DNA from: Alphaproteobacteria bacterium
Lineage (GTDB): Bacteria; Pseudomonadota; Alphaproteobacteria; Rs-D84
Assembly: GCA_017522445.1 (NCBI GenBank)
Contig: JAFWZK010000058.1
Span: 2,281 to 66,280 of the forward strand
Direction: 5' to 3'
Length of the DNA: 64,000 nucleotides
This document shows, piece by piece, positions 2,067 through 34,556 of this stretch; position 1 is the first letter of the stretch; every line of letters begins with the position of its first letter. The position numbers and the translations under genes were made by a program. The notes under the pieces were generated by a model. That model ran no database searches. It was given only the letters and a program-made list of their open reading frames with translations, and had not been told where the DNA came from.

Positions 2067-2417
2067 CTAGATTGCATTTTTTATCCAATAAATACGAAAT
2101 CCGCATACCGCAATTATGTCAAAACGCGAGTCCCCAACCCAACCCGTACGCATCATATAGGTTTCTGCCGCACGACGAAGACGCATCGCCTGAACGCCAG
2201 AAACCGCGGCGGTCGCCGCCGAGATGGTCGGACGATTTTTTACCTCGATAAATACCAGTAAATTACCACGGCGGGCAATTATGTCCAATTCTGCACGGTG
2301 TGTGTGACGACCCGTGATATACCGTGAACTGACTATGCGAAATCCATGAAGGCGCAAATACATGCGGGCATAAAACTCGGATATTAAACCTGTGTTATAT
2401 GTTGTCCTAGAACGCAT
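2067..2417 (-). CDS. yraN: YraN/UPF0102 family endonuclease-like protein
   Basis: ELDIIARRGNLLVFIEVKNR core motif. Start refined to M35 of the tracked ORF, which gives a family-typical length of about 116 aa. Confidence 0.75.
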   Translation of the reverse strand: MRSRTTYNTGLISEFYARMYLRLHGFRIVSSRYITGRHTHRAELDIIARRGNLLVFIEVKNRPTISAATAAVSGVQAMRLRRAAETYMMRTGWVGDSRFDIIAVCGFRIYWIKNAI

Positions 2418-3189
2418 AGGATTTTGCCCGAAAGTTTTCACGTGCAGACTGGCTATTCTTGACCATGTCGGTCGCATTGCGACCATTGTCAACCAAATCC
2501 AACGCACCATAATATGCAATCAACATCGGATCGTAAGAGTTCGTGCTGGATATCCAATGGTCAGTGCCAGAATTCGGACCGCCATATTTATCAAGAACAC
2601 TTTGCCAGAAATATAATATCTTGTTTTCACGCTGCTTGGCAAACTTTTCGGCAGAACCTTCAACCTCGTTAACATCGTTATTGTAAACAACACGCCATAC
2701 ACGATTGTCGGTCGCATTGCTGGTGAAATATACAACAATCGTCTCGCCCGTGTTTTCACGAACCAAGTGTACCTGGGATGCATATAATAATCCACGATTG
2801 CGGGCCAAACTGTTTATGCAACGTTCCAGCGCATCCGGGGCAACCGTACCATTTTGACGACATTCATAATCCAAATTGTTTTTCCAATCGGTATTTATCG
2901 TGTATATGATACCATTTTTATCCCGCGGGGCATACAATCCATTTGAATGAAAAAATAAATCCTGGACATCTTCAAATGACATGCCCAACATTATCCCCGC
3001 AATGTCAAAACCACCAACGTCCGCAATTTCTGCATCGTCGTTCAGATATACGTCTTCGGGTAAAATATCACCATAGTCACCGTCAACAATCGCAAAATCA
3101 TTAAAATCAAACGATTCAGCCGCACTGGATGCAACCGGTGATGTCGCCAAGAATAAAACTGCAAAAATCAAAAATAAATTCTTTCTCAT
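2407..3189 (-). CDS. secreted protein, unknown function
   Basis: Signal peptide MRKNLFLIFAVLFLATSPVASSAAE. 260-aa intact ORF in an operon with the neighbouring genes. Confidence 0.6.
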   Translation of the reverse strand: MRKNLFLIFAVLFLATSPVASSAAESFDFNDFAIVDGDYGDILPEDVYLNDDAEIADVGGFDIAGIMLGMSFEDVQDLFFHSNGLYAPRDKNGIIYTINTDWKNNLDYECRQNGTVAPDALERCINSLARNRGLLYASQVHLVRENTGETIVVYFTSNATDNRVWRVVYNNDVNEVEGSAEKFAKQRENKILYFWQSVLDKYGGPNSGTDHWISSTNSYDPMLIAYYGALDLVDNGRNATDMVKNSQSARENFRAKSYAF

Positions 3190-3210
3190 ATTGATTATAT
3201 TATGAACCTT

Positions 3211-3855
3211 TTATTCCTGTAATACAATGTCAAAAACACCAAACCGAAATACCGCAGCAGGATCACCACCAGATTCTAGGTACCCTGATATGTCAAACGA
3301 ACCCGAACGCATCCCAGGGCGATAAAATATATCCATATACAATACACCACGCTGTGTAATCGGCGAAACAGAAAAATCATTCGGTCGTTCCCAGGTCTTT
3401 AATTCGTACACTATTCGCCAATATTCCCCATTTTCAGTTTTGCTTTGAAATTCGGCATCTATAACCGATGCTGTACGCAATACACCAGAGTTAGACAGAT
3501 TTTCTATGTCTGGTGCAACCGTGTCCAGCCATGTCTGAAATGTTTCAGAGGTAGACATGCGGGCCAGCGATGTGTCCCCTGCAATACGCCGTTTCGTCTC
3601 GTCAGGGTCGGGGGTTACATAAAAGAATTCCGTTATATACTTGGATATCAACATAGAACGCATCGCTTCGTCACCCAATTCCCCAGGTGTTTGCGGTTTG
3701 CCAATACGCCCAGTGTAATTGTCATTTGGCTGGAAAAAATACGGCTCTATCACGATTTTGGCAGACGTGTCGTATATCACACCAGTTGCCAATAATGATG
3801 CAAACATCAGTGCAAATAATATTAAGCCCACAAAGAATAATATCAACTTTCTCAT
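3211..3855 (-). CDS. bitopic membrane protein, unknown function (one N-terminal TM helix plus a periplasmic domain of about 180 aa)
   Basis: MRKLILFFVGLILFALMFASLLA anchor. Organisation recalls VirB8/DotI-type proteins, but this was not verified. Confidence 0.55.
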   Translation of the reverse strand: MRKLILFFVGLILFALMFASLLATGVIYDTSAKIVIEPYFFQPNDNYTGRIGKPQTPGELGDEAMRSMLISKYITEFFYVTPDPDETKRRIAGDTSLARMSTSETFQTWLDTVAPDIENLSNSGVLRTASVIDAEFQSKTENGEYWRIVYELKTWERPNDFSVSPITQRGVLYMDIFYRPGMRSGSFDISGYLESGGDPAAVFRFGVFDIVLQE

Positions 3856-4613
3856 CAGTTCATCTTGTACGCGTTAAAGGTTGAAACATAATATCCCAAT
3901 GTCTGGGGATATGAATCTAAATCCCGCGAAACCGTGGCATAGGCCATAATGTCCAATTGACCAGATGTGCTGGAATATACAGTCGCGTTAACCAGCCATG
4001 AACCACCAGATGCATTTATCTCGCCCAGGGGGGTAAAACTTATCAAGTCAGAATCAACCAGCCATGTCTCGCCCAGGGATACACGCGTCTGATACCCAGG
4101 AACAACGTTTTCAATAAAATTTGAATATACCCCTTCGCCAGACATGCAATAAATTGAACAAGACTGGATTTCTATGCCAGTTTTATTATCAGGATTACAT
4201 TCTGTTTCGCGTTCACACGATTTCCACATCGCTGTGTTTACAGCATCACTGGCCGATATCCAGAACCAATGGGAAACAAATTTGCTTAAAACAGATTCCT
4301 GAAGCGAGCGGTCCGTGGTCATTTCCGGAATACGGCTGTGGTGGTGCCCAACAACAGTCCATGCACCGGTTATTTTATTCACAGATACCAAAAATGGATG
4401 AATATGCACAGAACGATTGGCCCAGAATAAAAAACCACACATCACAATAATCAAAAAAAACAAAACCATTGTGATAATAGAAACCAACCGTGTCGCCGCA
4501 ATCGAACGACCCGCAGGAAATGCCGGTGTTTCAAATCCACCTGGATAGTCCAATGTGAAATCCCCCCCGTGCATATCTGTTATTATGCCTGGTATACCAT
4601 TATACAGGCACAA
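3855..4613 (-). CDS. bitopic membrane protein, unknown function; same architecture as the 3211-3855 product
   Basis: TM segment LVSIITMVLFFLIIVMCGFLFW followed by a periplasmic domain. Start uncertain (TTG 4613 or ATG 4574). Its stop overlaps the start of the next gene. Confidence 0.5.
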   Translation of the reverse strand: MCLYNGIPGIITDMHGGDFTLDYPGGFETPAFPAGRSIAATRLVSIITMVLFFLIIVMCGFLFWANRSVHIHPFLVSVNKITGAWTVVGHHHSRIPEMTTDRSLQESVLSKFVSHWFWISASDAVNTAMWKSCERETECNPDNKTGIEIQSCSIYCMSGEGVYSNFIENVVPGYQTRVSLGETWLVDSDLISFTPLGEINASGGSWLVNATVYSSTSGQLDIMAYATVSRDLDSYPQTLGYYVSTFNAYKMN

Positions 4614-10256: not shown

Positions 10257-10308
10257 CCGAACCGCCCAAAATTAAAAATCCCGCAAACGCGGGATTTGTT
10301 AATGGGGC
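10257..10308. repeat. 52-bp direct repeat, left copy. Identical to 12062-12113, which spans the 3' tip of tRNA-His, its terminator and flanking sequence.
   Basis: CCGAACCGCCCAAAATTAAAAATCCCGCAAACGCGGGATTTGTTAATGGGGC is present identically at both positions. Confidence 0.9.
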
Positions 10309-10403: not shown

Positions 10404-10901
10404 TTAGTACTTTACTTCATTTAATATTTTCCAAAATTCTGGGACGTTCTTTGGTGCCATTCCGTTCAGCAGTTGCACCGATGCGATTGAGCCAAATGGC
10501 GCATAAAAACCTTCGTCAAAATCATAGTATTTGCGGATACAGTTGTTTATCGCAACATCTATATCCGCCATTGACATATGTATCATCAAATCCCATACCC
10601 GTTCCAATATCTCGTCATACTTGTAATCACTAAATCTGTAATTATCCCAAAAATAATACAATATTTGTTCTGCCTGTGCATAACTCAAATCTTTGATATG
10701 TTCTGGGAAATTAAAACGTGGATGGGCCGCCCGATACATATCCAGTTTTTCCTGATTCACAGCGTATGCATTTATAAGTGCAGGGTTAGTTCTTTTATTA
10801 GCTGTTTCATATTCAATGATTTTATCAATCCAAGTGTCGATTGGATGCCCCCATGAAACCACAGGAATCAATAAAGTCAATAAAATCACCATCTTTTTCA
10901 T
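10404..10901 (-). CDS. secreted paralogue of the GH108-like domain of the upstream gene
   Basis: Signal peptide MKKMVILLTLLIPVVSWG. NPALI...HPRFNFPEHIKDLSYAQAEQI aligns with NPALI...HPNFNFPENVKDLSPEQVQQI of the 10934-11791 product. EGG is replaced by ETA. Confidence 0.6.
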   Translation of the reverse strand: MKKMVILLTLLIPVVSWGHPIDTWIDKIIEYETANKRTNPALINAYAVNQEKLDMYRAAHPRFNFPEHIKDLSYAQAEQILYYFWDNYRFSDYKYDEILERVWDLMIHMSMADIDVAINNCIRKYYDFDEGFYAPFGSIASVQLLNGMAPKNVPEFWKILNEVKY

Positions 10902-10933
10902 ACTGGCATTATTACAAATCAGATAATAAAAAA

Positions 10934-11791
10934 TCAATATCTATTTGTACGATTTGCCCAACCATCACCATATTTTCCCCAATCCGGCAGTCTCTGCAAA
11001 TATTCTAATCTGTTTTCTTTTAAGTCATCCATAAATTTATCGACTTTATTTTCTGGGATATTATTTAGTGCCCCAATTGTATTATTTCCAATCTTTCCAT
11101 CCACTTTCAAACTTTCACCCATTGAATCATTTAATGTTTCTTGAACCATTTTTCCTACGTTTCTAAAATTACTCATAAGTCCCATATCAAATATCGCCAT
11201 TGCAATTCTTTCGTTTTCAATTTCTCCTATACGGCGTTCATCATAATAATCCTCATTATATATTTGCTGCACTTGTTCAGGGCTTAAATCTTTTACATTT
11301 TCTGGGAAATTAAAATTTGGGTGGTCAGCATTATATTTATCCAATGTGGGTTGTGTTACGCCTATGTTTGTTGGTTGGTCTATTAAAGCAGGATTGTCAA
11401 CATATCCGCCCTCGTTTTTCATTCCCTGGCGGACTATTCTAGTTCGTCTTTCATCATTATTTAGCTCATCGCTATCATCTAATTCTATTTCTTCTATCCA
11501 ACAACGACAATTGGGGTGGTGAGGATTTTCTGGTATATCTTCCATATTTTCATAAATTGTATCAGCAAAATCCAAACAATCATCACACGTCCGCTCGTCT
11601 ACTTCTGTATGCCACCGCCATGCGGTTCTGACTGTAATATTACGCCCCGTTGCATCTGTACGACTGTTACCATATTTATTTTCAAAATAATCTTGTACCT
11701 GTTTGGCGACAGCAGCATGGTTGGGATTATTGCTGTTTGAATATGCGTCGCTGTGCATAAGGTTTAGTATATTGTTTGATAATTTGTTCAT
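10934..11791 (-). CDS. fusion of a MuF/SPP1-gp7-like head-morphogenesis domain to a GH108-type lysozyme with a PG_binding_3-like C-terminus
   Basis: WRWHTEVDERTCDDCLDFADTIYE...PHHPNCRCW is the MuF-type motif. NEGGYVDNP plus VDGKIGNNTIGAL...GWANR is the GH108/peptidoglycan-binding pattern. Start refined to MNKLSN (ATG 11791) behind AAAAGGA. Confidence 0.65.
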   Translation of the reverse strand: MNKLSNNILNLMHSDAYSNSNNPNHAAVAKQVQDYFENKYGNSRTDATGRNITVRTAWRWHTEVDERTCDDCLDFADTIYENMEDIPENPHHPNCRCWIEEIELDDSDELNNDERRTRIVRQGMKNEGGYVDNPALIDQPTNIGVTQPTLDKYNADHPNFNFPENVKDLSPEQVQQIYNEDYYDERRIGEIENERIAMAIFDMGLMSNFRNVGKMVQETLNDSMGESLKVDGKIGNNTIGALNNIPENKVDKFMDDLKENRLEYLQRLPDWGKYGDGWANRTNRY

Positions 11792-11807: not shown

Positions 11808-11830
11808 AAAAAAACACCCGCGTGTGCGGG
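11808..11830 (-). terminator. leader terminator 2 upstream of the MuF-lysozyme gene
   Basis: On the minus strand: CCCGC-ACAC-GCGGG then TGTTTTTT, about 15 nt before the RBS. Confidence 0.6.
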
Positions 11831-11834
11831 CAAT

Positions 11835-11858
11835 AAAAAAAGACGACCCAATGTCGTC
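11835..11858 (-). terminator. leader terminator 1 upstream of the MuF-lysozyme gene
   Basis: On the minus strand: GACGAC-ATTGG-GTCGTC then TTTTTTT, a few nt after the predicted start site. Confidence 0.6.
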
Positions 11859-11872
11859 CGCTGAATGTGCGT

Positions 11873-11901
11873 ATTATATCATAAAATGTGCAAAAAATCA
11901 A
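11873..11901 (-). promoter_or_regulatory. sigma70-type promoter
   Basis: On the minus strand: TTGATT, a 17-nt spacer, then TATAAT. Confidence 0.55.
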
Positions 11902-11929
11902 TAAAAAACGCCCCAGATGGGACGTTTGA

Positions 11930-11949
11930 TAATGGGGCGGATAACCGGA
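11930..11949. repeat. 20-bp partial copy of the tRNA-His 3' end (identical to 12105-12124)
   Basis: TAATGGGGCGGATAACCGGA occurs at both positions. Confidence 0.8.
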
Positions 11950-12061: not shown

Positions 12062-12113
12062 CCGAACCGCCCAAAATTAAAAATCCCGCAAACGCGGGAT
12101 TTGTTAATGGGGC
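12062..12113. repeat. 52-bp direct repeat, right copy (overlaps the tRNA-His 3' end and its terminator)
   Basis: Identical to 10257-10308. Confidence 0.9.
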
Positions 12114-12185
12114 GGATAACCGGACTCGAACCGGCGACATTTGGTACCACAAACCAACGCTCTAACCAACTGAGCTATATCCGCC
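12108..12185 (-). tRNA. tRNA-His (GUG)
   Basis: Hand-folded cloverleaf GGCGGATATAGCTCAGTTGGTTAGAGC...TTGTGGT anticodon loop...GGTTCGAGTCC...TATCCGCCCCA. G-1 and C73 are encoded, and CCA is encoded. Confidence 0.9.
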
Positions 12186-23935: not shown

Positions 23936-23966
23936 TAAAAAACCTGGGGTGACGCCCCAGGTTTTT
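23936..23966. terminator. bidirectional terminator between the radical SAM gene and the phage-like cluster
   Basis: A-run, CCTGGGG-TGACG-CCCCAGG, then T-run, between convergent genes. Confidence 0.75.
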
Positions 23967-24456
23967 ATTCGGCGGACATGCCATATGCAACCCACATACC
24001 AGACATGTCCATCACCCAAGTATGCCATGTGTCGGCAATCTGGGTTCTGTGTCCAGAAAAACCAGTGGTTGTTATGTCGTATATGTTGATTGTAACTGCA
24101 CATATAGTTGCTGAGTCGCTAGACGATATGCTGACTGTTGGCGGTACCGCAAATGCTACGGGAAAATTTACACTGCGTCCTGATAATCGTCCACCCTGTT
24201 CCACCCAACCACTGCGATATTTGCGATACCATGTATAGTTGTTTTCAGATGTCGGCATTTGCCAGGCAATCACATAATCTGCCCCAGACATATCGGTAAT
24301 CGCATCTGCACGCGCCATTGGTGTGCCACCAGGTGTCGTGCCGTCGTGTACGCGAAGTGTGTTGTTCGTGGTGTCAACCGTTATTTCACCAACGGCACCT
24401 GTAAAGTTTTCGTGTTCGGCGGCCGTTCCACGCCGAAATTGTATTTGTCGTGACAT
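23965..24456 (-). CDS. tail fibre protein
   Basis: N-terminus IQFRRGTAAEHENFTGAVGEITVDTTNNTLRVHDGTTPGG is the widespread fibre N-terminal (Mtd_N-type) pattern. The C-terminus YTWYRKYRSGWVEQGG...VNFPVAF is a common fibre-tip pattern. Confidence 0.75.
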   Translation of the reverse strand: MSRQIQFRRGTAAEHENFTGAVGEITVDTTNNTLRVHDGTTPGGTPMARADAITDMSGADYVIAWQMPTSENNYTWYRKYRSGWVEQGGRLSGRSVNFPVAFAVPPTVSISSSDSATICAVTINIYDITTTGFSGHRTQIADTWHTWVMDMSGMWVAYGMSAE

Positions 24457-24484
24457 AAGAATATATTCCTTTGGTTATAAATAG

Positions 24485-24721
24485 TTATTTGATAACTGCA
24501 CCCTTAATCAGGGTCAGGTCTTCTTTGATATCGTCAATCTTGATTTGTATCTGGCCGATACCTGTTTCCAATATCGTTGTCCGATTTTCCAGCGATGTTA
24601 TGCGGGTGTCAAAACTTTCGTGTTCGGCAACAGATAAATCTTGGCGGGCCGCCCAATAGACCAGCCCACCAATGAAAACAATCAAAAACCAACTGTTACG
24701 AAGAAAATCTAGGATGTTCAT
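24485..24721 (-). CDS. small membrane-anchored coiled-coil protein (phage-type)
   Basis: N-terminal TM helix WFLIVFIGGLVYWAA followed by a heptad-like region. 4-nt overlap with the upstream gene. Confidence 0.5.
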   Translation of the reverse strand: MNILDFLRNSWFLIVFIGGLVYWAARQDLSVAEHESFDTRITSLENRTTILETGIGQIQIKIDDIKEDLTLIKGAVIK

Positions 24722-24921
24722 GACTTGTCCCCCCTGCCCCGTGAAATCAGTGATTCTATCTGACGAACCAGGGCACGTTGGGATTCAAGCCAGCGCAACT
24801 CGTTATCTGTGGCGTTCGGCCCCAGGGTGCGAGAAATAGTTATTTTCCGCAGGTAATCCAATACCTGCCCACCCGATGGCGTGCCAAAACAACGGGCAAA
24901 ACTTTGTTCAATTTCTGTCAC
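24718..24921 (-). CDS. small conserved portal-adjacent phage protein (Bbp19-like pattern)
   Basis: FGTPSGGQVLDYLRKITISRTLGPNATDNELRWLESQRALV resembles, from memory, the small proteins encoded next to portals of BPP-1-like podoviruses. Confidence 0.45.
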   Translation of the reverse strand: MTEIEQSFARCFGTPSGGQVLDYLRKITISRTLGPNATDNELRWLESQRALVRQIESLISRGRGDKS

Positions 24922-26159
24922 AGCGCATCACCCCCCAGTACACTTTCAATTGCTGTCATCTGGGCAATCGGGGCAATGTATTTTAATTCTGCATCGCCAT
25001 TTAGCTGGATTGGTGCTATCAAACCGCGGCGTGCCAATATCTGTAATCCACGGTCGCATAATGGACGAATAAACTCGTGCAATAAACGGCCATAGGTCGC
25101 ACCCAATATTCGCATCATGTCTGCATTGCGGGCCATGATTTCAGTGGCGGTCATTTCTTTTTCAGACAGCAATCCCAATCGGTCCGCCAACATGGCATGA
25201 CGAATGCGTTCACGTAAATCTTTCAGTATTAACTGGGATACGTCAAAGTTGGCAGCACTGTTCAATGGGGTCAAACCTGTTGAACCCACCGCCTTGGGGA
25301 TAATCGCCCCAGGGGTCAGGTTGATATTGTTCAGGTTAATCACACCATCATCGTCTGCCTGCCAGATGCCGGTAACCGCAATAGTTGCATTTTTTAAAAC
25401 CAGTTCAACAACCTTGTTCGCGGTTTTTATGTCCGGTAATGCACGCAGTACAGGTCCACGACCGTATAACTCGCCAGATGCCAATGACCAACGAAAGATT
25501 ATGTATGGATTCGTTTCAAATGTGCCACGGGACACAATGTTGTTTTCCAGTTCCCCACCAACATCCAACCAGGCCGTGAATTCAGTACCAACCAAGCTTT
25601 GAACCAAATTTAATGGGGCGTTTGGATTCTGGGTTATCATGTCACGTATATTTGATGGTGGCGTCCAGGTGGGATAACGTTCCAGAACCTCGTACAGGGG
25701 GATGGATGTGGTATGAAAAACAGCATCCGGTAAAATCGCAATATCTGTCATAGGCACCGCTGTAAATGTAAAGGCAGAGGACGAACCAAGGGGGGCCTCG
25801 GCCATAAATAGGCATGCGGTGCCATTTATCACCAAATCCATATAGCACTGGTGTATCGTGGTGTAAAAATTGGAATCGTTCAAATTAGCACGCAAAACAG
25901 CGGTCGCAATGTCTGCGTTCTGGGACATTTCACTTTCGCCCACCAGTTGCAGCCATAATGATTCTGGCGGTGTCAGCAATGTATAAATAGATGCCGCCAG
26001 ATTGTCCGCCGCATCTGATGCCGTGGCATCGTACAGTGTGGCTGTGTCTGAATCTGTGGCAGGTATCGTATAACGACGGGCATCGTCCCAGCGTGTCAAC
26101 CAGGGGGAACGCATGTCCAATGCACGTTTATACAGGTTTTGCAGGTTGTTTGGTTGCAT
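24918..26159 (-). CDS. portal (head-to-tail connector) protein, T7 gp8-type
   Basis: 413 aa. The N-terminal pattern LYKRALDMRSPWLTRWDDARRYTIP...AADNLAASIYTLLTPP matches the podovirus connector family as I recall it. It lies directly downstream of the terminase. Confidence 0.7.
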   Translation of the reverse strand: MQPNNLQNLYKRALDMRSPWLTRWDDARRYTIPATDSDTATLYDATASDAADNLAASIYTLLTPPESLWLQLVGESEMSQNADIATAVLRANLNDSNFYTTIHQCYMDLVINGTACLFMAEAPLGSSSAFTFTAVPMTDIAILPDAVFHTTSIPLYEVLERYPTWTPPSNIRDMITQNPNAPLNLVQSLVGTEFTAWLDVGGELENNIVSRGTFETNPYIIFRWSLASGELYGRGPVLRALPDIKTANKVVELVLKNATIAVTGIWQADDDGVINLNNINLTPGAIIPKAVGSTGLTPLNSAANFDVSQLILKDLRERIRHAMLADRLGLLSEKEMTATEIMARNADMMRILGATYGRLLHEFIRPLCDRGLQILARRGLIAPIQLNGDAELKYIAPIAQMTAIESVLGGDAL

Positions 26160-26189
26160 AAAAAAACTCCTTTGTGTGTGTTTTGTTTG

Positions 26190-27059
26190 TTAAACCGTAA
26201 AGTTTGTGTTTGCAGAATATGTTGTAATGGCACGACCACTGGGACGTACAATAAATGGCGTGTGCGCTATTGCACCGGCAACCGCGTCCAGACCATCATC
26301 GTGCATGCCAGATACACCGGCCGGTGACCAACCCAACATTTCTGATAAAAATGGGGTCTGACGAATGCGCATGTGGGCGTGCAGGCGACCTGTTGATAAA
26401 ACGGGCTCGATTGCGGACAGGATGCGGTCCGATTTGCTGCGACTGTTCTGAATCTTTGTTATGCGTACAGTAAAACCACGAGTGGCAGCACAATTACGCA
26501 TAATCTCGGGCAAGCCGCCACCAATGCCGTTGGTTTCCAAAACCAGATTATGCAAATTGCGACGCGACATAAAATCTAATACCTGGTCACACTGGTGCGA
26601 CAAAGGATATTGGATGCCGTCCGATACTGTTAAATACAAAATGTCATCAATAAAAATATGACGACTGTTATCATCACGATACAACAATACACAGGCACTG
26701 TTGTCACGATTGCGGCGACCAGATGATGGGTCCCAATACAGCACATGACCCGTTATCGTAAAATCCCCAATACTTGCAGTTCGCGGATTAAACTCGTCAG
26801 AATAAAATATAAGCGAACCAGGATCCAGACGTGTTCGTTCGGGCGGTATAAATTCCAATAGCATCTGAGATGAAAAATGACGATGACCAACCAAAGTACG
26901 CATCTGTTCTATGCGGGCAGCAGAAAATAATTCAGGCCAGGCAGAGGTACCGTCCGCATTAACTAGCGGAATTTTCAGGACTTTGTACCCAGATAAAAAA
27001 GGCGTTGAAAAAGCATTTTTTTCATATACCATGGGCATAGAAGAAAAGGATTGTGACAT
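26190..27059 (-). CDS. terminase large subunit, C-terminal (nuclease) fragment
   Basis: WPELF..IEQMR...FSSQMLLEF, then WDPSSG...LETNGIGGG...MHDDGLDA (RNase-H-like nuclease signature). It lacks any Walker motif. A possible own start at ATG 27059 is preceded by AGGGG. Confidence 0.7.
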   Translation of the reverse strand: MSQSFSSMPMVYEKNAFSTPFLSGYKVLKIPLVNADGTSAWPELFSAARIEQMRTLVGHRHFSSQMLLEFIPPERTRLDPGSLIFYSDEFNPRTASIGDFTITGHVLYWDPSSGRRNRDNSACVLLYRDDNSRHIFIDDILYLTVSDGIQYPLSHQCDQVLDFMSRRNLHNLVLETNGIGGGLPEIMRNCAATRGFTVRITKIQNSRSKSDRILSAIEPVLSTGRLHAHMRIRQTPFLSEMLGWSPAGVSGMHDDGLDAVAGAIAHTPFIVRPSGRAITTYSANTNFTV

Positions 27060-28623
27060 GGATTTTACCCCTAAGACATTACCAACCAATTTAGAAGCAG
27101 AACAGGCCGTGTTGGCCGCTGTGTTGATGAAAAACCGCGCACTGGAACAGGTGGGTGAATTCCTGAATGCAAAACACTTTTCACACCCCGCACACCAAGA
27201 AATCTATCGGTTGGCGGAAAAACAATTCGCAGCAGGTATACCGTTTGATATTATTACCGCAAAAAACTATCTGGACCAACAGGGGGTTCTGGAATCAGTG
27301 GGCGGTGTTGAATACCTTAGCCAGCTGGCCAGTGCAGGCACAACAGTTGTAAATGTTGAACAATATGGACGAATAGTTTATGAAAATGCACTGCGACGCG
27401 ATTTAATCGCACTGGGCCAGGAAATCACAGACAAGGCATTCATAGAAGACCTGGATAATCCCGTGGCACGACAAATCGAAGCCGCAGAACAAAAACTGTT
27501 CGATATGGCAACCACAGGTGCATCAGAACGTGAAATTACATCTATTTCAAGTGCACTGGATGCCGCCATGGCCGAAGCAGAAATCGCATACAAGGCAGAT
27601 GGACAATTGTCTGGTTTAACAACTGGACTGAATGCACTGGATACATCAATCAGCGGTCTGCATCATTCTGACCTGATTATTATCGCAGGACGACCCGCAA
27701 TGGGAAAAACAACACTGGCAATGAATATCGCATTTAATGCAGCAAATGCAATCGCACATGGACGGGCCAATAAAAACTATACAGGGGCGGTCGTATTTTT
27801 CAGTCTGGAAATGTCCGCGTCCCAGCTGGCGGCACGTGTGCTGTCTTCGCAATCGCGGGTCAAGGCATCGTCTATGCGTGAAGGTACGCTGACCGATGAA
27901 GATTTCCTGAAAATGTCCCAGTATGCCGCAGCCATTTCCAAGGTGCCACTGTTCATAGATGATACCGCAGGTATGTCTGTGCCAATGATGCGTACACGGG
28001 TGCGGCGACTGGCCAGAAAACATGGTGGTATCGCATTGATTGTTATTGACTATTTACAATTGATGACATCACCCGGCGGTAAACACAATGATAATCGTGT
28101 CCAGGAAATTTCCGAGATTACACGTGGCCTTAAAATGCTGGCCAAAGAAATGGATGTGCCAGTTATCGCACTGTCTCAGTTATCGCGTAGCGTGGAATCA
28201 CGTGATGATAAACGACCAATGTTGTCAGATTTGCGTGAATCAGGTTCAATCGAACAGGACGCCGATATCGTTATGTTTACATATCGCGAAGAATACTATT
28301 TGCAAAACCGCGATCCAAATGAACGAATTTCAAATAATACCAACGATAAAATGCATGATTCTTGGCAAAACAGAATGGATCGTGCACGCGGCAAGGCCGA
28401 TATAATCATCGGTAAAAACCGCCATGGAAGACCCGAAACCGTCAGAACCGCTTTCTTTGGCGATTTCAGCTTGTTCGATAACCTGGAAGAGTTCGAGGCA
28501 CGCGGTGAAAACGAATACGCTCAGCCCGCCCCCACAATCTCGGCAGCCAGTCTGATGAACGAAGACGATGTAATGCCAACACCAATCGATGATGATGCAA
28601 TTCCAGATGATATGCCGTTGTAA
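27058..28623 (+). CDS. dnaB: replicative DNA helicase DnaB with an acidic C-terminal extension
   Basis: LPTNLEAEQAVLAAVLM N-terminal domain, GRPAMGKT Walker A and a RecA-like core ending DIIIGKNRHGRP. Start refined to MDFTPK (ATG 27058) behind AAAGGA. Confidence 0.92.
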   Translation: MDFTPKTLPTNLEAEQAVLAAVLMKNRALEQVGEFLNAKHFSHPAHQEIYRLAEKQFAAGIPFDIITAKNYLDQQGVLESVGGVEYLSQLASAGTTVVNVEQYGRIVYENALRRDLIALGQEITDKAFIEDLDNPVARQIEAAEQKLFDMATTGASEREITSISSALDAAMAEAEIAYKADGQLSGLTTGLNALDTSISGLHHSDLIIIAGRPAMGKTTLAMNIAFNAANAIAHGRANKNYTGAVVFFSLEMSASQLAARVLSSQSRVKASSMREGTLTDEDFLKMSQYAAAISKVPLFIDDTAGMSVPMMRTRVRRLARKHGGIALIVIDYLQLMTSPGGKHNDNRVQEISEITRGLKMLAKEMDVPVIALSQLSRSVESRDDKRPMLSDLRESGSIEQDADIVMFTYREEYYLQNRDPNERISNNTNDKMHDSWQNRMDRARGKADIIIGKNRHGRPETVRTAFFGDFSLFDNLEEFEARGENEYAQPAPTISAASLMNEDDVMPTPIDDDAIPDDMPL

Positions 28624-28695
28624 TTATTTTACTTGCACCATAATTAAAAATTGACTATTATTTTGTCAAGAAACAATAGTTTTAGGAGTTTTATT

Positions 28696-29703
28696 ATGGC
28701 CCAAGAAGAAATTATATTTCCAAATAATATACGCAATATTCGCCTGGCCAAGGGAATGAAAATGACCGACCTGGCCAGACGGGCAGATTTATCGTTGTCT
28801 GCGGTTTCTAAAATCGAAAAGGGTGTTCGCAGACTGAACCAAAAACAATTACTGCGTATCTGCAATATCTTGGGATGCAAGTTGTCCGATGTGTTTATCA
28901 AAGAATCTGATGCCGTCGCCGACCAATGGCAAAGCGAAATTAAACGCAGATTAAGCGACAATGAAAACAGCGGATTAAAAGTCTTTGGCAGCGGAATGCG
29001 TAAAATTCGCCAGCAGTCCGGAAAAACTATTGCACAGGCCGCAAAAGACGCAGGTATGACACTGTCTGTGTACCATAAAATCGAGGTTGGACAACGCGAA
29101 ATCTATAAAAATGAAATCGAACCGTTGGCGGCTTCGTTCGCAATGAAAACAGAAGAACTGTTCGATAAAATCGCAAACTTGTACAAATCCGGTGAATTGA
29201 ATAAACATATCAGCAAGGTCAAGGAACGTGTTAAATCTGTTCTGGTGCCGGGAAATCCGTTGTCGGGTATCGATATGCAGGGCAGTTTATATGGCGCAAA
29301 ACTGTATGACAGTGCACGTAAAAAACTGGTGCCAGTGTTCGGAACCCCGTCCGGTAAAGCAATCGCATTTAATAAATCTGACTCTGCAATGATTATCGCA
29401 CCATCCGAACTGGAAGGACGAAAAGGTATCTATGCCATTATGCCCAATACCAAAAGAATGGGGGGGATGATACCAGAAAAATCATACATCTTTGCAGATG
29501 CACTGACACAGGCAAAACCAGGTGATTTGGCCGTGTGTCTGGATGTGGACTTTGATACGCTGGGGACCGATGAAACCGTTAATGCACAAGTTGCAATCAT
29601 TAAACAGGATTCCAGGGGTAAAGTTCTGGGACACATCCTGGGGCCTGATGAAAAAATTACACCAAAAACAATGCACAAAGTTATTATGGTTGTCATGGAA
29701 TAA
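28696..29703 (+). CDS. transcriptional regulator with two XRE-type HTH domains and a degenerate S24/LexA-like C-terminal domain
   Basis: IRNIRLAKGMKMTDLARRADLSLSAVSKIEKG and MRKIRQQSGKTIAQAAKDAGMTLSVYHKIEVG. The C-terminus has a LexA-like fold pattern, with MGGM where GxSM is expected. Start refined to MAQEEI behind AGGAG. Confidence 0.75.
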   Translation: MAQEEIIFPNNIRNIRLAKGMKMTDLARRADLSLSAVSKIEKGVRRLNQKQLLRICNILGCKLSDVFIKESDAVADQWQSEIKRRLSDNENSGLKVFGSGMRKIRQQSGKTIAQAAKDAGMTLSVYHKIEVGQREIYKNEIEPLAASFAMKTEELFDKIANLYKSGELNKHISKVKERVKSVLVPGNPLSGIDMQGSLYGAKLYDSARKKLVPVFGTPSGKAIAFNKSDSAMIIAPSELEGRKGIYAIMPNTKRMGGMIPEKSYIFADALTQAKPGDLAVCLDVDFDTLGTDETVNAQVAIIKQDSRGKVLGHILGPDEKITPKTMHKVIMVVME

Positions 29704-29733
29704 TTCAAACAATATACCCAGAGAGAGAATACA

Positions 29734-30375
29734 ATGAATACAAAATCCAGTGCAACAGCATTAAAACTGTTAAATCTGTACCGCCAAGAACACGTTATAA
29801 TCGGCGGTTGGGCCGCCGTCAATCAGGTCTTTGTCGCACAGGCAAATGATGATGTTATCCGGGAACTGAAAAATATGCCAACAGGTAAATCACTGGTTCA
29901 ACACATAGAAAACCTGAGAAGCGGCAAAACACCAATGGATTCAATCGAACGTGATTTAATGCCATATGGCGGAATGATGCTGGATTCAACTGTGCCTTCA
30001 ATCAAACTGGATGATAATCAGTGGCAGGAACTGGAATATGGTATCGATAACTTTACACCAGATCAGGCAGGATTGGAAACCTTTACCGCACTGGGGGTGG
30101 TGCAAAAGTTCGGAACAGAATGGATTACCGCAATCGCAGATGCAATAAACCAAAAACCATACCTGCGAGATAAATGGAATATCATAACCCAGACATATAA
30201 TGCATATCGACTGTGGAATACAGCAAATGAAATTATCGCAACCCCAATTTCAGAACGCGTCCGCGGTCAGGTCCAGGCCGATATGCCAGAATACGAAACA
30301 TATCTGCCAATGTTCGGTGATGCGGGTATGCAATTGCTGGAAAAATTAAGAACCATTATCAGCAGTTTAAAATAG
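29734..30375 (+). CDS. hypothetical protein (213 aa)
   Basis: Intact ORF, last gene of the plus-strand insert. Its end overlaps the stop of the terminase ATPase fragment by 9 nt. No motif recognised. Confidence 0.5.
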   Translation: MNTKSSATALKLLNLYRQEHVIIGGWAAVNQVFVAQANDDVIRELKNMPTGKSLVQHIENLRSGKTPMDSIERDLMPYGGMMLDSTVPSIKLDDNQWQELEYGIDNFTPDQAGLETFTALGVVQKFGTEWITAIADAINQKPYLRDKWNIITQTYNAYRLWNTANEIIATPISERVRGQVQADMPEYETYLPMFGDAGMQLLEKLRTIISSLK

Positions 30376-30987
30376 TTCCCCCTGCCCCGTATCTGTGCGA
30401 TATATCGTATCGTGTGTGTGCGGTGTTCCTATGTATACCATGGCACCGGTGGGCGATAATATAAAATCCAGTTCACGTAATCGTTCACGCAGGTCTGCAC
30501 GCTTTTGCAGGGTGTTTGATGTGTTTGGAACCTCGACGTCATCACATATAATTAAATCTGCACGCATGCCAGTGATGTTGCCGTGTATGCCCTGGCATAT
30601 GACAGACGGCTCGCGGATGCCAATGGGGCGATTGACCGTTATTCGACCCATCGACCATTCTTTTTTATTCGATGGAACCAAATTGCTGCACCAGGGATGA
30701 TTTTCCAATATGTGACGAATGTGCGATACCATACGGGTCGACAACCCTGATTCCGCAGATAATATTAATATACGTGTTTGGGGATATAAATACAAAACAC
30801 AGGCCGCAAAAATCCCAACAACCGTGGATTTGCCCGAATGACGAAATGCCATCAGCAATCCACGATGCGGTGAATCACACAATACACCATACAGAAATTC
30901 CAATATCTGACGATGATGACGTGGCGTTTTTAACCCCAATACTCGATTCCATTCGTCCAAAAAATCATAAAATACCGTAATCATCAC
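30367..30987 (-). CDS. terminase large subunit, N-terminal (ATPase) fragment
   Basis: Walker A-like FRHSGKST, Walker B DLIICDD and the coupling motif IGTP. The stop comes 21 codons after IGTP. Confidence 0.75.
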   Translation of the reverse strand: MMITVFYDFLDEWNRVLGLKTPRHHRQILEFLYGVLCDSPHRGLLMAFRHSGKSTVVGIFAACVLYLYPQTRILILSAESGLSTRMVSHIRHILENHPWCSNLVPSNKKEWSMGRITVNRPIGIREPSVICQGIHGNITGMRADLIICDDVEVPNTSNTLQKRADLRERLRELDFILSPTGAMVYIGTPHTHDTIYRTDTGQGELF

Positions 30988-31516
30988 GATTTTCGTTCGG
31001 TGCAGGTTCTGTTATGACACCATAGTCATTTATCAATTTCGGCAACGCATTTTCCAATACACCCAACAGATTTCTGTACAACCCCATTACCGACCCGCCC
31101 GATAATTTGTCATTTATTACAGAATGGGTATAGTCAATTAACGATTTAATGTTATCATGACGGTTCGCCCATTGCGATAAATCAATGTTGACCGAATGTA
31201 AATCCTGGAATGCAGATAACAAAAAGTTAAAGTCAGAGTTTAAATCTTCGGGATCTATTTGGGCCGTTGGCTGATAGTCAATCGTACGTGATAATGATAT
31301 TTGTCTGAAAATGTCCAGACGTGTGCCTGTTTCCGGGGCAATATCAAAAACAACATTGCCACCAGAAAAATCAGAGTTTGGTATCACAGTAAAATTAGCC
31401 CCGTGATTATCTAAAACCTCGTTTATCGCAACGCAAATGTCCGCGACCTGAAAAAACGGAAAGGAAAATGCAAACTCGGTCGTCGTGCCGTCCGCAATAT
31501 AAGATATTTTGTACAT
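30965..31516 (-). CDS. tail-fibre adaptor protein with a T7 gp17 N-terminal-like domain
   Basis: YIADGTTTEFAFSFPFFQVADICVAIN...IDYQPTAQIDPEDLNSDFNFLLSAFQDL follows the Y..DG....F.IPF...V pattern of podovirus fibre N-termini. Confidence 0.55.
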   Translation of the reverse strand: MYKISYIADGTTTEFAFSFPFFQVADICVAINEVLDNHGANFTVIPNSDFSGGNVVFDIAPETGTRLDIFRQISLSRTIDYQPTAQIDPEDLNSDFNFLLSAFQDLHSVNIDLSQWANRHDNIKSLIDYTHSVINDKLSGGSVMGLYRNLLGVLENALPKLINDYGVITEPAPNENRDDYGIL

Positions 31517-31539
31517 ATTTATACCCCCATGACCTGTTC

Positions 31540-31887
31540 CTAGCCAACCAAATCATCAAATCTGGATAAAATTGATCGCAGCAAGTTTGGCTTTTTAGCA
31601 GTACTTTGTTTTAACTTTTTCAAATTATTACGACGTTTTTCTTCGTATGGGGCCGCGGTTTCAGAACGCAAACGTTCCAATACGCGACCGGCGGTCATGC
31701 CTGATGCAGATACACCAGACGAACCATACTTGGCGCGCTGGGCGGCCAAGACTTTTTTCACCAGATTCGTCTTTTCTGTGTTATCTGTCGCCATCTGGGC
31801 AAGAATTTCTTTGCGTTGGCTTTTTGCCTGCTTCTTGGCATCTTTATAGTCCAAGATTTCTGTCACATCTGATACAAGTTGTCCCAT
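31540..31887 (-). CDS. small basic virion-associated-type protein, unknown function
   Basis: 115 aa, Lys/Arg-rich and predicted helical. It sits between tail genes. Confidence 0.4.
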   Translation of the reverse strand: MGQLVSDVTEILDYKDAKKQAKSQRKEILAQMATDNTEKTNLVKKVLAAQRAKYGSSGVSASGMTAGRVLERLRSETAAPYEEKRRNNLKKLKQSTAKKPNLLRSILSRFDDLVG

Positions 31888-31950
31888 GTGTTTTCCTTTG
31901 CTTTGTTTGATTTGTTTTATGTGTTATTAAAATTGTTGGCACAATGATAA

Positions 31951-33666: not shown

Positions 33667-33691
33667 TTGTTGTTTTCCCTTTGGTAAATTG

Positions 33692-34210: not shown

Positions 34211-34287
34211 TTTTTGACCCTTTGGTTATGTTATGAATAAAATTGGGCCGAAATTAATCGGCCCGAACATAAGAAAATAAAAAACAT

Positions 34288-34521
34288 TTATGCCAATGCA
34301 ACCGTAGTCACATTTAATTCAGTGATATTAATTCTTTTAATCGCCGTGTTGTCAGATGCGTTAATAATTACAATATCACCAATGTTCATCAGCGTTTTTA
34401 CACCATTAAAATACCCGTTCGCAGTAATAGTAGACATCGTTTCAGATGCACTGCAATAGTGCCACAATGTAAAACCATTTGCATATGCAATCACGGATAA
34501 GTTTTTGTTCTGAAATGCCAT
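34288..34521 (-). CDS. small phage protein downstream of the capsid gene (possible decoration/accessory head protein)
   Basis: MAFQNKNLSVIAYANGFTLWHY... Start refined to ATG 34521 behind AAAGGA. Function unknown. Confidence 0.45.
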   Translation of the reverse strand: MAFQNKNLSVIAYANGFTLWHYCSASETMSTITANGYFNGVKTLMNIGDIVIINASDNTAIKRINITELNVTTVALA

Positions 34522-34556
34522 TTGTGTTTTCCTTTTGGTTAATGATGATATTAATT

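What the first reader, a model, noticed from the sequence alone, without database searches (positions are those of the whole stretch)
10404..11791. MuF head-morphogenesis domain fused to a GH108-type lysozyme, followed by a signal-peptide-bearing paralogue of the lysozyme domain
Seen:
- The N-terminal half carries the MuF/SPP1-gp7 motif (W..H...D.R.C..C......Y.......PHHPNCRC).
- The C-terminal half carries NEGGYVDNP plus a DGKIGNNT...GW.NR peptidoglycan-binding pattern.
- The next gene encodes a Sec-signal protein that aligns with the lysozyme core (NPALI, HP.FNFPE.(I/V)KDLS) but reads ETA where EGG is expected, and lacks both the MuF part and the binding part.

Established: MuF-domain proteins are packaged into capsids. 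Phage-encoded MuF polymorphic toxins have variable C-terminal effector domains and are followed by a cognate immunity gene. Podoviruses need an ejected murein hydrolase (T7 gp16).

Inference: this looks like a capsid-packaged, ejected cell-wall-degrading effector for the particle system, which itself lacks gp16-like genes. The periplasmic paralogue could be an immunity, inhibitor or decoy protein.
Basis: partly seen in the sequence, partly recalled or inferred. Interest (0 to 1): 0.6.

Follow-up and report, generated by a model that had tools for sequence, protein, structure and literature searches.

The report
MuF-tagged lysozyme plus exported paralogue
A gut bacterium with a tiny genome (Candidatus Enterousia) encodes a cell-wall-cutting enzyme fused to a phage "get-into-the-capsid" tag, followed by an exported, probably inactive copy of that enzyme, and the pair looks like a particle-delivered wall-breaching enzyme with its own periplasmic protector, though nothing here has been tested at the bench.

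Summary
Gene A (11791-10934, minus strand, 285 aa) is a short MuF/SPP1-gp7-type domain fused to a GH108 N-acetylmuramidase with a PG_binding_3 domain. Its closest solved relatives are Brucella SagA and Salmonella TtsA. Gene B (10901-10404, 165 aa) has a signal peptide and is a diverged paralogue of the whole muramidase module, without the catalytic Asp/Thr loop.

The host is Candidatus Enterousia (order Rs-D84, genomes under 1 Mb). The pair is flanked by a perfect 52-nt repeat at tRNA-His and is under purifying selection. B directly follows A in 32 of 55 MuF-fused genome loci.

The locus is a variable cassette site. Relatives keep the same N-terminal domain but carry other GH108 subtypes, GH24 lysozyme or an SLT-like domain. 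Each has its own exported partner gene and shares a conserved promoter and leader hairpin.

T7-like capsid, portal, tail and split-terminase genes lie in the same window. In one complete genome they lie directly upstream of A.

Best reading (about 0.4): a particle-packaged, ejected muramidase with a periplasmic protective partner. Packaging and inhibition are inferred only. The claim that the particle system lacks a gp16-like hydrolase is doubtful, because 53507-54487 carries such a domain.

The parts
10934..11791 (-). Gene A: a 285-aa fusion protein (short MuF domain, acidic linker, GH108 muramidase, PG_binding_3). It has no signal peptide.
   Evidence: AlphaFold2 model has mean pLDDT 86.5.
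11477..11791 (-). N-terminal short MuF/SPP1-gp7-type domain (aa 1-105). It comprises three helices, a beta hairpin, and the C69-x2-C72...H92-x2-C95-x-C97 motif ending CRCWIEE.
   Evidence: PHROG head-morphogenesis hits. Pfam PF04233 scores 23.5 bits, below cut-off. Relatives score above cut-off. Invariant Cys/His residues. A canonical short MuF in viral contig L100 ends in the same CRCWIEE.
11177..11452 (-). GH108 N-acetylmuramidase catalytic domain (aa ~114-205), with E127 in NEGGY, invariant D138 and invariant T141.
   Evidence: Pfam E 2.6e-15. Foldseek top hit is SagA 7dnp at E 5.6e-7. The profile against SagA gives E 2e-22 with aligned Glu and Thr. SagA catalytic residues are taken from PMC8334348.
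10937..11152 (-). PG_binding_3 peptidoglycan-binding domain (aa ~214-285).
   Evidence: Pfam 28.7 bits, above the 24.6 cut-off. It aligns with the SagA C-terminal domain.
10404..10901 (-). Gene B: a 165-aa exported paralogue of the muramidase module. It has a signal peptide at aa 1-18, lacks the Asp/Thr catalytic loop (3-residue deletion, with N44 where A has D138), and lacks the last ~26 residues of the binding domain.
   Evidence: dN/dS is 0.04-0.37. B is adjacent to A in 32 genome loci.
11873..11901 (-). Promoter-like site TTGATT-17-TATAAT with an extended -10 TG, upstream of A.
   Evidence: A homologous sequence lies upstream of other cassettes.
11815..11859 (-). 5' leader with two tandem terminator-like hairpins between the promoter and the A start codon. 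The first hairpin (GACGACATTGG(G)TCGTC followed by a T run) is conserved across cassettes.
   Evidence: Exact matches occur in 12 loci, including three copies in L021, each in front of a different cassette.
12062..12113 (.). Left copy of the perfect 52-nt direct repeat. It covers the last 6 nt of tRNA-His plus its terminator hairpin.
   Evidence: D3.
10257..10308 (.). Right copy of the 52-nt direct repeat, preceded by a degenerate tRNA 3'-end-like sequence. Together the two copies bracket the A-B cassette (1805-nt spacing).
   Evidence: The same right flank is found in the alternative cassette, L011.
11900..11949 (.). A third, partial copy: the last 17 nt of tRNA-His plus a different terminator hairpin. 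It is an att-like remnant.
   Evidence: D1, D4.
12108..12184 (-). tRNA-His (GTG), the anchor of the cassette site.

Best explanation
A is a cytoplasmically made, two-module enzyme. Its short MuF-type domain is the head-incorporation module that in SPP1 and Mu places a minor protein at the portal or DNA end. This domain carries an active GH108 N-acetylmuramidase with its murein-binding domain.

In cells that make the T7-like particles encoded by the same genome, A is loaded into the capsid. It leaves with the DNA and opens the recipient's murein locally.

B is transcribed with A and exported by Sec. It is a catalytically degenerate copy of the same muramidase module. In the periplasm it acts as a protective partner, either occupying the murein sites or binding the enzyme. 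This would protect producers and kin from the incoming enzyme, much as T4 Spackle blocks the gp5 tail lysozyme.

The pair is one cassette of a variable cassette site at tRNA-His. Each cassette has its own promoter and a terminator-containing leader, which suggests expression only under antitermination or induction.

Shown: the domain identities, the paralogy, the signal peptide, the loss of the catalytic loop in B, purifying selection, module shuffling, the cassette structure, and linkage to T7-like genes.

Inferred: packaging, ejection, enzymatic activity, and the protective role of B.
For: - MuF-type N domain.
- Invariant Cys/His motif ending exactly where canonical short MuF proteins end.
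- GH108 fold and aligned catalytic Glu and Thr.
- The N domain is rare (139 representatives among 1.84 billion). Its divergent relatives scanned with Pfam (10) or seen are mostly fused to muramidases of two unrelated folds, GH108 or GH24; three scanned relatives showed no C-terminal Pfam domain.
- A third arrangement, SLT-like domain plus MuF motif, occurs in L021.
- A has no signal peptide, while B has a conserved one.
- B lacks the Asp/Thr loop.
- dN/dS is about 0.04-0.45 for all three modules, with discordant dS between them.
- B is adjacent to A in 32 of 55 MuF-fused loci.
- Other variants have other exported partners, namely the C family, a 326-aa lipoprotein and a 132-aa protein.
- Strains with an identical Frr protein carry a different cassette at the same site with shared flanks.
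- T7-like portal, capsid, scaffold, tail tube/nozzle, fibre and split terminase are in the window.
- The portal is at least 83% identical across 120 clusters.
- In L045 the portal ends ~1 kb upstream of A.
- The portal is on the same contig as A or B in at least five further cases.
- Mtd_N fibre-like genes lie within 4-7 kb of A in nine loci.
- Precedent for a virion lysozyme with a periplasmic inhibitor: T4 gp5 and Spackle, PMC7677548.
Against: - No T7-type phage is known to use a MuF protein, and nothing here shows binding to a PF12236 portal.
- A lies 13 kb from the portal in this window, with housekeeping genes between.
- In L045, att-like tRNA-His fragments lie between the portal cluster and A. 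The adjacency may therefore reflect a shared integration hot spot rather than shared function.
- 24 of 79 related loci have the muramidase without MuF. A stand-alone GH108 sits behind the same leader in L027.
- B persists next to a GH24 variant, and its divergence does not track that of A's C domain.
- B keeps a nearly invariant Glu at the end of helix 1, so a single-Glu lytic-transglycosylase activity cannot be excluded.
- The B structure model is poor, with mean pLDDT 62.
- No phage in GenBank/INPHARED or IMG/VR carries the fusion, so there is no phage genome context from which to infer its role.
Confidence: 0.4

Rival explanations
1. Lysis cassette. A is the endolysin that releases the T7-like particles, a holin-dependent cytoplasmic muramidase. 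B is an accessory lysis or envelope factor. The MuF-like domain would be a regulatory or Zn-binding appendage.
For: - The C half of A resembles phage GH108 endolysins (197 phage records, all stand-alone; phrog_315 'endolysin' at 9e-29).
- NCBIfam's best hit is 'holin-associated N-acetylmuramidase', at 67 bits, which is far below its cut-off of 240.
- A has no signal peptide.
- Stand-alone versions without MuF share the same leader.
- A conserved 78-85-aa protein with a transmembrane segment and a coiled coil follows the portal, and in L045 it lies ~500 nt upstream of A.
- The terminator-containing leader fits late or induced expression.
Against: - A MuF domain has no known role in endolysins, yet it is invariant and under purifying selection.
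- It recurs on two unrelated muramidase folds.
- No holin or spanin gene is adjacent in the window.
- An endolysin does not explain the recurrent, diverse exported partner genes or the allelic cassette replacement.
Confidence: 0.2
2. Interbacterial weapon. The cassettes are polymorphic toxin-immunity pairs. The particle delivers the muramidase to kill competing strains, and B and the other partners are true immunity proteins.
For: - A shared N-terminal trafficking domain carries swapped C-terminal wall-degrading domains, each with its own exported partner.
- L021 has a tandem cassette array.
- Alternative alleles occur in strains with identical Frr.
- Retention of B beside a new GH24 module with its own convergent partner in L006 looks like an orphan immunity gene.
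- The architecture matches the MuF toxins of PMC5576092.
Against: - Every C-terminal domain identified by Pfam is a murein hydrolase, not the nucleases, ADP-ribosyltransferases and similar domains typical of polymorphic toxins; several scanned relatives carry no recognisable C-terminal domain.
- A few packaged copies per particle are unlikely to kill. This rests on own knowledge of the low copy number of SPP1 gp7.
- The C-family partner also accompanies stand-alone muramidases without MuF.
Confidence: 0.13
3. Specialised autolysin. Like Brucella SagA with PhiA, or Salmonella TtsA, A opens the cell's own murein for an envelope-spanning machine or for secretion. B would be its periplasmic modulator. 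On this reading there is no connection to the particles.
For: - The closest solved structures are SagA, NMB1012, TtsA and Sen1395.
- SagA is paired with a periplasmic putative inhibitor (PMC8334348).
- The genomic context is chromosomal and not a prophage.
- Weak VirB8-like genes lie near bamA on the same contig.
Against: - It does not explain the MuF domain.
- It does not explain the att-like repeats.
- It does not explain the allelic cassette replacement or the linkage to portal and fibre genes.
Confidence: 0.12
4. Decaying remnant of an integrated phage at tRNA-His, with no present function.
For: - A perfect 52-nt repeat and further tRNA-His 3' fragments flank the genes.
- There is no integrase.
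- GC content is lower here (0.376 against about 0.45).
Against: - Both genes are intact, with dN/dS well below 1.
- They are conserved across dozens of species with genomes under 1 Mb.
- Fragments of both genes appear in metatranscriptome-run contigs.
Confidence: 0.03

Closest known systems
MuF polymorphic toxins of temperate phages (Jamet et al. 2017, PMC5576092)
   Same: An N-terminal MuF domain carries a C-terminal extension with an enzymatic effector. The C-terminal module is swapped among relatives, and a small downstream gene is a candidate protector.
   Different: - The MuF part here is only ~105 aa.
- The gene is chromosomal and lone, in a tRNA-His cassette site, not in a prophage head module.
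- The extensions that Pfam could identify are murein hydrolases. Lysozyme, peptidoglycan and muramidase are not mentioned in that paper's main text.
- The partner is exported, and in this cassette it is a paralogue of the effector.
Short MuF / minor head proteins (SPP1 gp7, Mu gpF; PF04233, TIGR01641)
   Same: The conserved C-terminal motif is the same, ending ...HPNCRCWIEE. The PHROG head-morphogenesis families match.
   Different: The window protein scores below the Pfam cut-off and matches only the C-terminal half of the model. It is not next to an SPP1- or Mu-type portal. The only portal in view is T7-type (PF12236).
Virion-associated murein hydrolases: T7 gp16 N-terminal transglycosylase, the T4 gp5 tail lysozyme with its periplasmic inhibitor Spackle (PMC7677548), and cystovirus phi8 P5
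   Same: The proposed job is the same, namely local wall digestion at DNA entry. T4 also encodes an exported protein that neutralises its own virion lysozyme. phi8 P5 is a GH108-type relative of the C half of A, at 29% identity (H16).
   Different: There is no homology to gp16, gp5 or Spackle. Delivery would be through a MuF tag rather than as part of a tail spike or core protein. B is a paralogue of the enzyme, which Spackle is not.
Brucella SagA/PhiA and Salmonella TtsA (GH108 muramidases for secretion)
   Same: These are the best structural and sequence matches for residues 114-285. Catalytic Glu and Thr are conserved. SagA has a neighbouring exported putative inhibitor.
   Different: Those enzymes have no MuF domain. 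PhiA has an MliC/PliC-like beta barrel and is not a paralogue. They serve type IV secretion or toxin export.
Type VI secretion muramidase or amidase effectors with periplasmic immunity proteins (for example Tse3/Tsi3; own knowledge, not checked here)
   Same: A wall-degrading effector is paired with an adjacent gene for an exported or lipoprotein protector, and the pairs vary between strains.
   Different: The delivery route is different. No type VI secretion genes were seen here.

Membership tests
Phage_Mu_F / SPP1 gp7 minor head protein (PF04233, TIGR01641) | Profile match above the curated cut-off | tested here: inconclusive
   The window protein scores 23.5 bits against a cut-off of 29.6 and has no TIGR01641 hit. 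Relatives with the same architecture do pass: P0443 48.9, P0340 38.8, P0349 35.8 and P0363 30.1 bits. Seven PHROG head-morphogenesis or minor-head families match, the best at 1.2e-8.
Phage_Mu_F / SPP1 gp7 minor head protein (PF04233, TIGR01641) | Conserved C-terminal Cys/His motif (C-x2-C ... H-x2-C-x-C) | tested here: met
   C69, C72, H92, C95 and C97 are invariant in 33 homologues. The ending is the same as in a canonical short MuF in L100.
Phage_Mu_F / SPP1 gp7 minor head protein (PF04233, TIGR01641) | Gene sits in a head module beside terminase and portal | tested here: not met
   In the window, A lies between tRNA-His and frr, 13 kb from the portal. In L045 it is ~1 kb downstream of the portal, but separated by att-like remnants and with its own promoter.
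Phage_Mu_F / SPP1 gp7 minor head protein (PF04233, TIGR01641) | Protein is present in capsids and bound to the portal or DNA | not testable with these tools
   This needs particle proteomics or binding assays.
MuF polymorphic toxin (Jamet 2017) | MuF domain plus a C-terminal extension that varies among relatives | tested here: met
   GH108 subtypes, GH24, and an SLT-like domain with MuF are all found. dS is discordant between modules.
MuF polymorphic toxin (Jamet 2017) | Encoded within a temperate phage or prophage | tested here: not met
   The cassette is lone and chromosomal with no integrase. The fusion is absent from 50,697 phage records and from IMG/VR.
MuF polymorphic toxin (Jamet 2017) | Small downstream ORF as candidate immunity gene | tested here: met
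   B (165 aa) lies 32 nt downstream, and is adjacent in 32 loci. The protective function is untested.
GH108 N-acetylmuramidase with PG_binding_3 (gene A, C half) | Profile matches above cut-off, and the fold | tested here: met
   57.1 and 28.7 bits. Foldseek gives SagA 7dnp at E 5.6e-7 with target TM-score 0.78. The profile against SagA gives E 2e-22.
GH108 N-acetylmuramidase with PG_binding_3 (gene A, C half) | Catalytic Glu/Asp/Thr (SagA Glu17, Asp26, Thr31) | tested here: met
   E127 and T141 align with Glu17 and Thr31. The invariant D138 lies two columns after the Asp26 column. Enzymatic activity itself is not testable here.
GH108 N-acetylmuramidase (gene B) | Profile match above cut-off and the catalytic triad | tested here: not met
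   Pfam scores 12.5 bits against a cut-off of 21.2. No GH108 chain appears in the PDB profile search. The Asp/Thr loop is deleted, and the EGG motif is variable or absent among homologues. Homology to the A module is nevertheless firm, at 98.6%.
Phage lysis cassette endolysin | Adjacent holin and/or spanin genes | tested here: not met
   There is no membrane-protein gene between tRNA-His and frr. A TM and coiled-coil gene lies next to the portal instead, at 24485-24721.
Periplasmic inhibitor of a virion lysozyme (T4 Spackle-like function) | Exported protein that binds and inhibits the cognate lysozyme | not testable with these tools
   A signal peptide is present and conserved.

The most novel reading that the evidence does not exclude
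Candidatus Enterousia keeps a domesticated T7-like particle, a podovirus-derived gene-transfer or killer particle. Its wall-breaching enzymes are not built into a core protein. They are supplied from a hypervariable cassette site at tRNA-His as short-MuF-tagged muramidases of interchangeable folds. Each comes with an exported protector. In this cassette the protector arose by duplication and catalytic inactivation of the effector domain itself.
Probability: 0.22. Interest if true: 0.8.

Novelty: new variant of a known kind. Interest (0 to 1): 0.6.

Why it matters
- It would extend the MuF cargo-delivery principle from phage toxins to a modular wall-breaching enzyme in a chromosomally fixed, T7-type particle system.
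- It would give the first example I know of in which the protector of a delivered muramidase is an inactivated copy of that enzyme.
- It would point to how DNA or particles cross the wall in an uncultured, genome-reduced gut lineage that still retains these genes in under 1 Mb.
- The cassette site is also a ready-made natural library of muramidase and partner pairs for biochemical study.

Tried and rejected
- **Scaffold-like capsid-targeting peptide.** phrog_3742 matched both A residues 6-40 (E 1e-4) and the window's T7-type scaffold. However, an HMM of the A-family N terminus searched against all 1205 six-frame ORFs of the window did not retrieve the scaffold, and BLASTP gave E 0.11. I dropped this as unsupported.
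- **Phage genomes carrying the fusion.** None was found in INPHARED with the whole protein or the N domain. None was found in IMG/VR with the single sequence or the family alignment. There is therefore no phage context to read the function from.
- **Fold of B.** The model is poor (pLDDT 62), so I ran no fold search on it. The profile search of the PDB gave only a spurious thioredoxin-like hit.
- **LprI identity of the convergent C-family proteins.** There is no Pfam hit at E up to 0.1. An LprI fragment does lie in one related locus, L008.
- **Leader hairpin elsewhere in the window.** I looked for it upstream of the particle genes and found only the one copy. No Rfam family matches the leader.
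- **Contig-level co-occurrence of A and the portal.** I tried matching longest-contig lengths. The portal list saturates at 83% identity, so only two extra matches were found: contig lengths 271,421 and 17,621.
- **Metatranscriptome contigs.** Fragments of A and B, including the A/B junction, appear at depths similar to frr. DNA carry-over cannot be excluded, and no transcript ends can be read.
Full report
**What is at the coordinates**

Two co-directional genes lie on the minus strand between tRNA-His and frr.
- Gene A runs from ATG 11791 to the stop at 10934 and is 285 aa. The longer TTG-started ORF in the mechanical list is an upstream extension. Most homologues are 285 aa, and the public gene call agrees.
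- Gene B starts 32 nt after the A stop, at ATG 10901, ends at 10404, and is 165 aa.
- The 10-12 kb bin has GC 0.376, against about 0.45 in the flanks.

**Gene A**

Pfam finds GH108 (E 2.6e-15) and PG_binding_3 (E 1.5e-6), both above their cut-offs. It also finds Phage_Mu_F at E 9.7e-5, which is below cut-off and matches only model positions 57-110.

The MuF assignment is nevertheless sound:
- The first 115 residues hit seven PHROG head-morphogenesis or minor-head families, the best at 1.2e-8.
- Divergent relatives pass the Pfam cut-off.
- A related locus gives TIGR01641 at 2.7e-9.
- C69, C72, H92, C95 and C97 are invariant.
- A canonical 200-aa short MuF, sitting between portal and scaffold in viral contig L100, ends with the same CRCWIEE. 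In A, this is exactly where the acidic linker and the enzyme begin.

The AlphaFold2 model is confident, with mean pLDDT 86.5. Its C half superposes on Brucella SagA, Neisseria NMB1012 and Salmonella TtsA/Sen1395. The family profile finds SagA at E 2e-22. SagA's catalytic residues are Glu17, Asp26 and Thr31 (PMC8334348). A's E127 and T141 align with the Glu and the Thr. The invariant D138 sits two columns after the Asp column. A has no signal peptide or membrane segment.

**Gene B**

B has a conserved cleavable signal peptide. It is a true paralogue of the muramidase module:
- BLASTP gives E 4e-13.
- An 84-nt DNA repeat is 73% identical.
- The profile-profile comparison gives 98.6% probability over A residues 114-259.

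It lacks the Asp/Thr loop through a three-residue deletion, with N44 where A has D138. The EGG motif reads ETA here and is variable or missing in homologues. A Glu at the end of helix 1 is nearly invariant.

B fails the GH108 profile and finds no GH108 chain in the PDB. Its structure model is poor. It is more uniformly conserved than A, with mean column identity of 63% against 43%. It is under purifying selection.

**Organism and distribution**

The window is part of an 88.6-kb metagenome scaffold. Genome records with the closest relatives are Candidatus Enterousia MAGs from animal guts. This genus belongs to order Rs-D84 and has genomes mostly under 1 Mb (PMC12306168).

Among 79 genome loci:
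- 55 have the MuF-fused form.
- In 32 of those, B follows directly.
- In 6 of the 55, a convergent small exported Cys-containing protein (the 'C' family) follows instead.
- 24 loci have a stand-alone muramidase without MuF.

The N domain is rare, with 139 representatives among 1.84 billion proteins. Of the divergent relatives I scanned, seven of ten are again fused to muramidases, either GH108 or the unrelated GH24/T4-type fold; the other three show no recognisable C-terminal domain. No deposited phage and no IMG/VR contig carries the fusion.

**A variable cassette site**

A perfect 52-nt direct repeat brackets A-B (10257-10308 and 12062-12113). It covers the last 6 nt of tRNA-His and its terminator. 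A further copy of the last 17 nt of the tRNA lies at 11933-11949. These are att-like remnants, and no integrase is present.

Strains whose Frr protein is identical to the window's carry a different cassette at the same site. It comprises a 397-aa long-MuF plus GH24 lysozyme and a convergent 326-aa lipoprotein. The promoter/leader and the ~80-nt right flank are the same as in the window.

The cassette has a promoter-like TTGATT-17-TATAAT followed by two terminator-like hairpins before the start codon. The first hairpin is conserved in 12 loci. It occurs three times in L021, each time in front of a different cassette:
- a truncated long-MuF with another GH108 subtype, plus a convergent exported protein;
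- A with B;
- an SLT-like domain carrying a MuF motif, plus a lipoprotein.

In L027 a stand-alone GH108 follows A-B behind the same leader. A 387-aa variant in L073 is followed by yet another exported protein.

Synonymous divergence differs several-fold between A's N domain, A's C domain and B within single loci. In L025, for example, dS is 1.19, 0.18 and 0.41. The modules are therefore shuffled by recombination.

**Link to a particle system**

The window holds T7-type genes interspersed with housekeeping genes such as dnaB and lipB:

| Gene | Coordinates |
|---|---|
| Mtd_N/H-lectin fibre-like gene | 23965-24456 |
| Portal | 24918-26159 |
| Terminase nuclease half | 26190-27089 |
| Terminase ATPase half | 30367-30987 |
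| Fibre N-terminal protein | 30965-31516 |
| Nozzle | 31951-33666 |
| Tail tube | 33692-34210 |
| Capsid | 34557-35384 |
| Scaffold | 36212-36991 |

The portal is at least 83% identical across 120 protein clusters. That level of conservation indicates vertical inheritance under strong constraint.

In the complete 958,618-bp MAG (L045), the order is tube, nozzle, terminase ATPase half, then three minus-strand genes including an HTH regulator and dnaB, then terminase nuclease half, portal and two small genes. Two reversed tRNA-His 3' fragments follow, then the cassette promoter/leader, A, B, tRNA-His, tRNA-Ala and frr. The portal is at the edge of three other A loci and shares contigs with A or B in two more cases. 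Fibre-like Mtd_N genes lie within 4-7 kb of A in nine loci.

This linkage is suggestive but not proof. The att-like fragments between the portal and A in L045 allow for two independent insertions at one hot spot.

The window is not devoid of gp16-like hydrolase domains. The 326-aa product of 53507-54487 has two membrane segments. Its C-terminal domain matches the N-terminus of a 1295-aa phage protein (PDB 9vvp Gp29, E 2e-9). It also matches PHROG families labelled 'endolysin' (the best hit, in PHROG's head-and-packaging category) and, more weakly, 'tail injection transglycosylase'.

It sits in a conserved three-gene operon (52332-55098). Paralogues of two of its genes lie just after A-B in L021 and L064, and elsewhere on the A-bearing locus in L023.

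**Interpretation**

The best-supported mechanism is a particle-packaged, ejected muramidase with an exported protective partner (about 0.4). The arguments for it are:
- a head-incorporation domain kept invariant on interchangeable muramidase folds;
- cytoplasmic synthesis of A against export of the partner;
- loss of the catalytic loop in B;
- cassette-style diversification;
- linkage to T7-like genes.

T4 offers a working precedent. Its tail lysozyme gp5 is neutralised by the exported Spackle protein (PMC7677548). The MuF-effector idea is established by comparative genomics (PMC5576092, PMC5512222). However, lysozyme cargo on MuF is not described in the former's main text.

The arguments against it are:
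- MuF is unknown in T7-type systems.
- A third of related cassettes lack MuF.
- B persists beside a GH24 variant (L006).
- B keeps a candidate catalytic Glu.
- Nothing is shown biochemically.

The rivals are an endolysin or lysis cassette (0.2), a killing toxin-immunity system (0.13), a SagA/TtsA-like autolysin with a modulator (0.12) and a dead remnant (0.03). The last is contradicted by selection and conservation.

**Expression**

Contigs of metatranscriptome runs cover parts of A, of B and of the A/B junction, at depths similar to frr. One contig crosses the leader hairpins. DNA carry-over cannot be excluded.

**Verdict**

The feature is a new variant of known kinds: a MuF C-terminal-extension protein, and a virion-type murein hydrolase with a periplasmic partner. 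It sits in an unusual setting, and the wider T7-like particle system of Candidatus Enterousia is probably the larger story.

Noticed in passing
window 23965-36991 (fibre-like gene 23965-24456, portal 24918-26159, terminase nuclease half 26190-27089, terminase ATPase half 30367-30987, fibre N-terminal protein 30965-31516, nozzle 31951-33666, tube 33692-34210, capsid 34557-35384, scaffold 36212-36991): T7-type structural genes are interleaved with essential host genes (dnaB, an HTH regulator, lipB) in a bacterium with a genome under 1 Mb. The portal is at least 83% identical across 120 clusters (4600 hits at E<1e-20). This looks like a domesticated podovirus-type particle system. I found no paper describing it.
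   Followed up: partly
window 26190-27089 and 30367-30987 (both minus strand): The large terminase is split into separate nuclease and ATPase genes about 3.3 kb apart, with dnaB and other genes between them. The same split and order are seen in the complete MAG, L045.
   Followed up: partly
window 52332-55098 (+): This is a three-gene operon. It encodes a 392-aa highly acidic, low-complexity protein. It also encodes a 326-aa two-TM protein whose C-terminal domain resembles the N-terminus of a 1295-aa phage protein (PDB 9vvp Gp29) and PHROG 'endolysin' and 'tail injection transglycosylase' families. The third product is a 201-aa membrane protein. The operon is conserved in other Enterousia loci. 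Paralogues of the last two genes lie next to A-B in L021 and L064, and elsewhere on the same locus in L023.
   Followed up: partly
L021 7599-12556: Three tandem cassettes lie behind the same leader hairpin at tRNA-His. One of them is a 146-aa protein with the hydrolase-like domain first and a MuF motif last, which is the reverse domain order (TIGR01641 at 2.7e-9).
   Followed up: partly
L011 3557-5727: An alternative cassette occupies the same chromosomal site in strains with an identical Frr protein. It comprises a 397-aa long-MuF plus GH24 lysozyme and a convergent 326-aa lipoprotein. At least four further contigs carry this allele.
   Followed up: yes
L004 11206-11619 (-), L006 6836-7210 (-), L008 2222-2737 (-), L009 10879-11325 (-): A family of small exported Cys-containing proteins is encoded convergently just downstream of muramidase genes, with or without MuF and of either GH108 or GH24 type. 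It has no Pfam assignment. An LprI (lysozyme inhibitor) fragment is called in L008 at 1990-2172.
   Followed up: partly
window 24485-24721 (-): A 78-aa protein with one transmembrane segment and a coiled coil lies directly after the portal. It is conserved in L025, L039, L045 and L058. It is a holin- or spanin-like candidate with no family match.
   Followed up: no
window 11815-11901 (-): A strong promoter-like site is followed by two tandem terminator-like hairpins before the A start codon. This suggests expression dependent on antitermination. There is no Rfam match.
   Followed up: partly
L003 1203-4376 and nine other loci: Extra Mtd_N fibre-like genes, paralogues of window 23965-24456, lie within a few kb of A in many genomes. 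In L003 one lies beside an 829-aa coiled-coil protein and LrgA/LrgB genes.
   Followed up: no
window 2407-4613 (L001 17218-19385): Genes with weak VirB8-like Pfam hits lie downstream of bamA on the same contig. I did not examine them.
   Followed up: no
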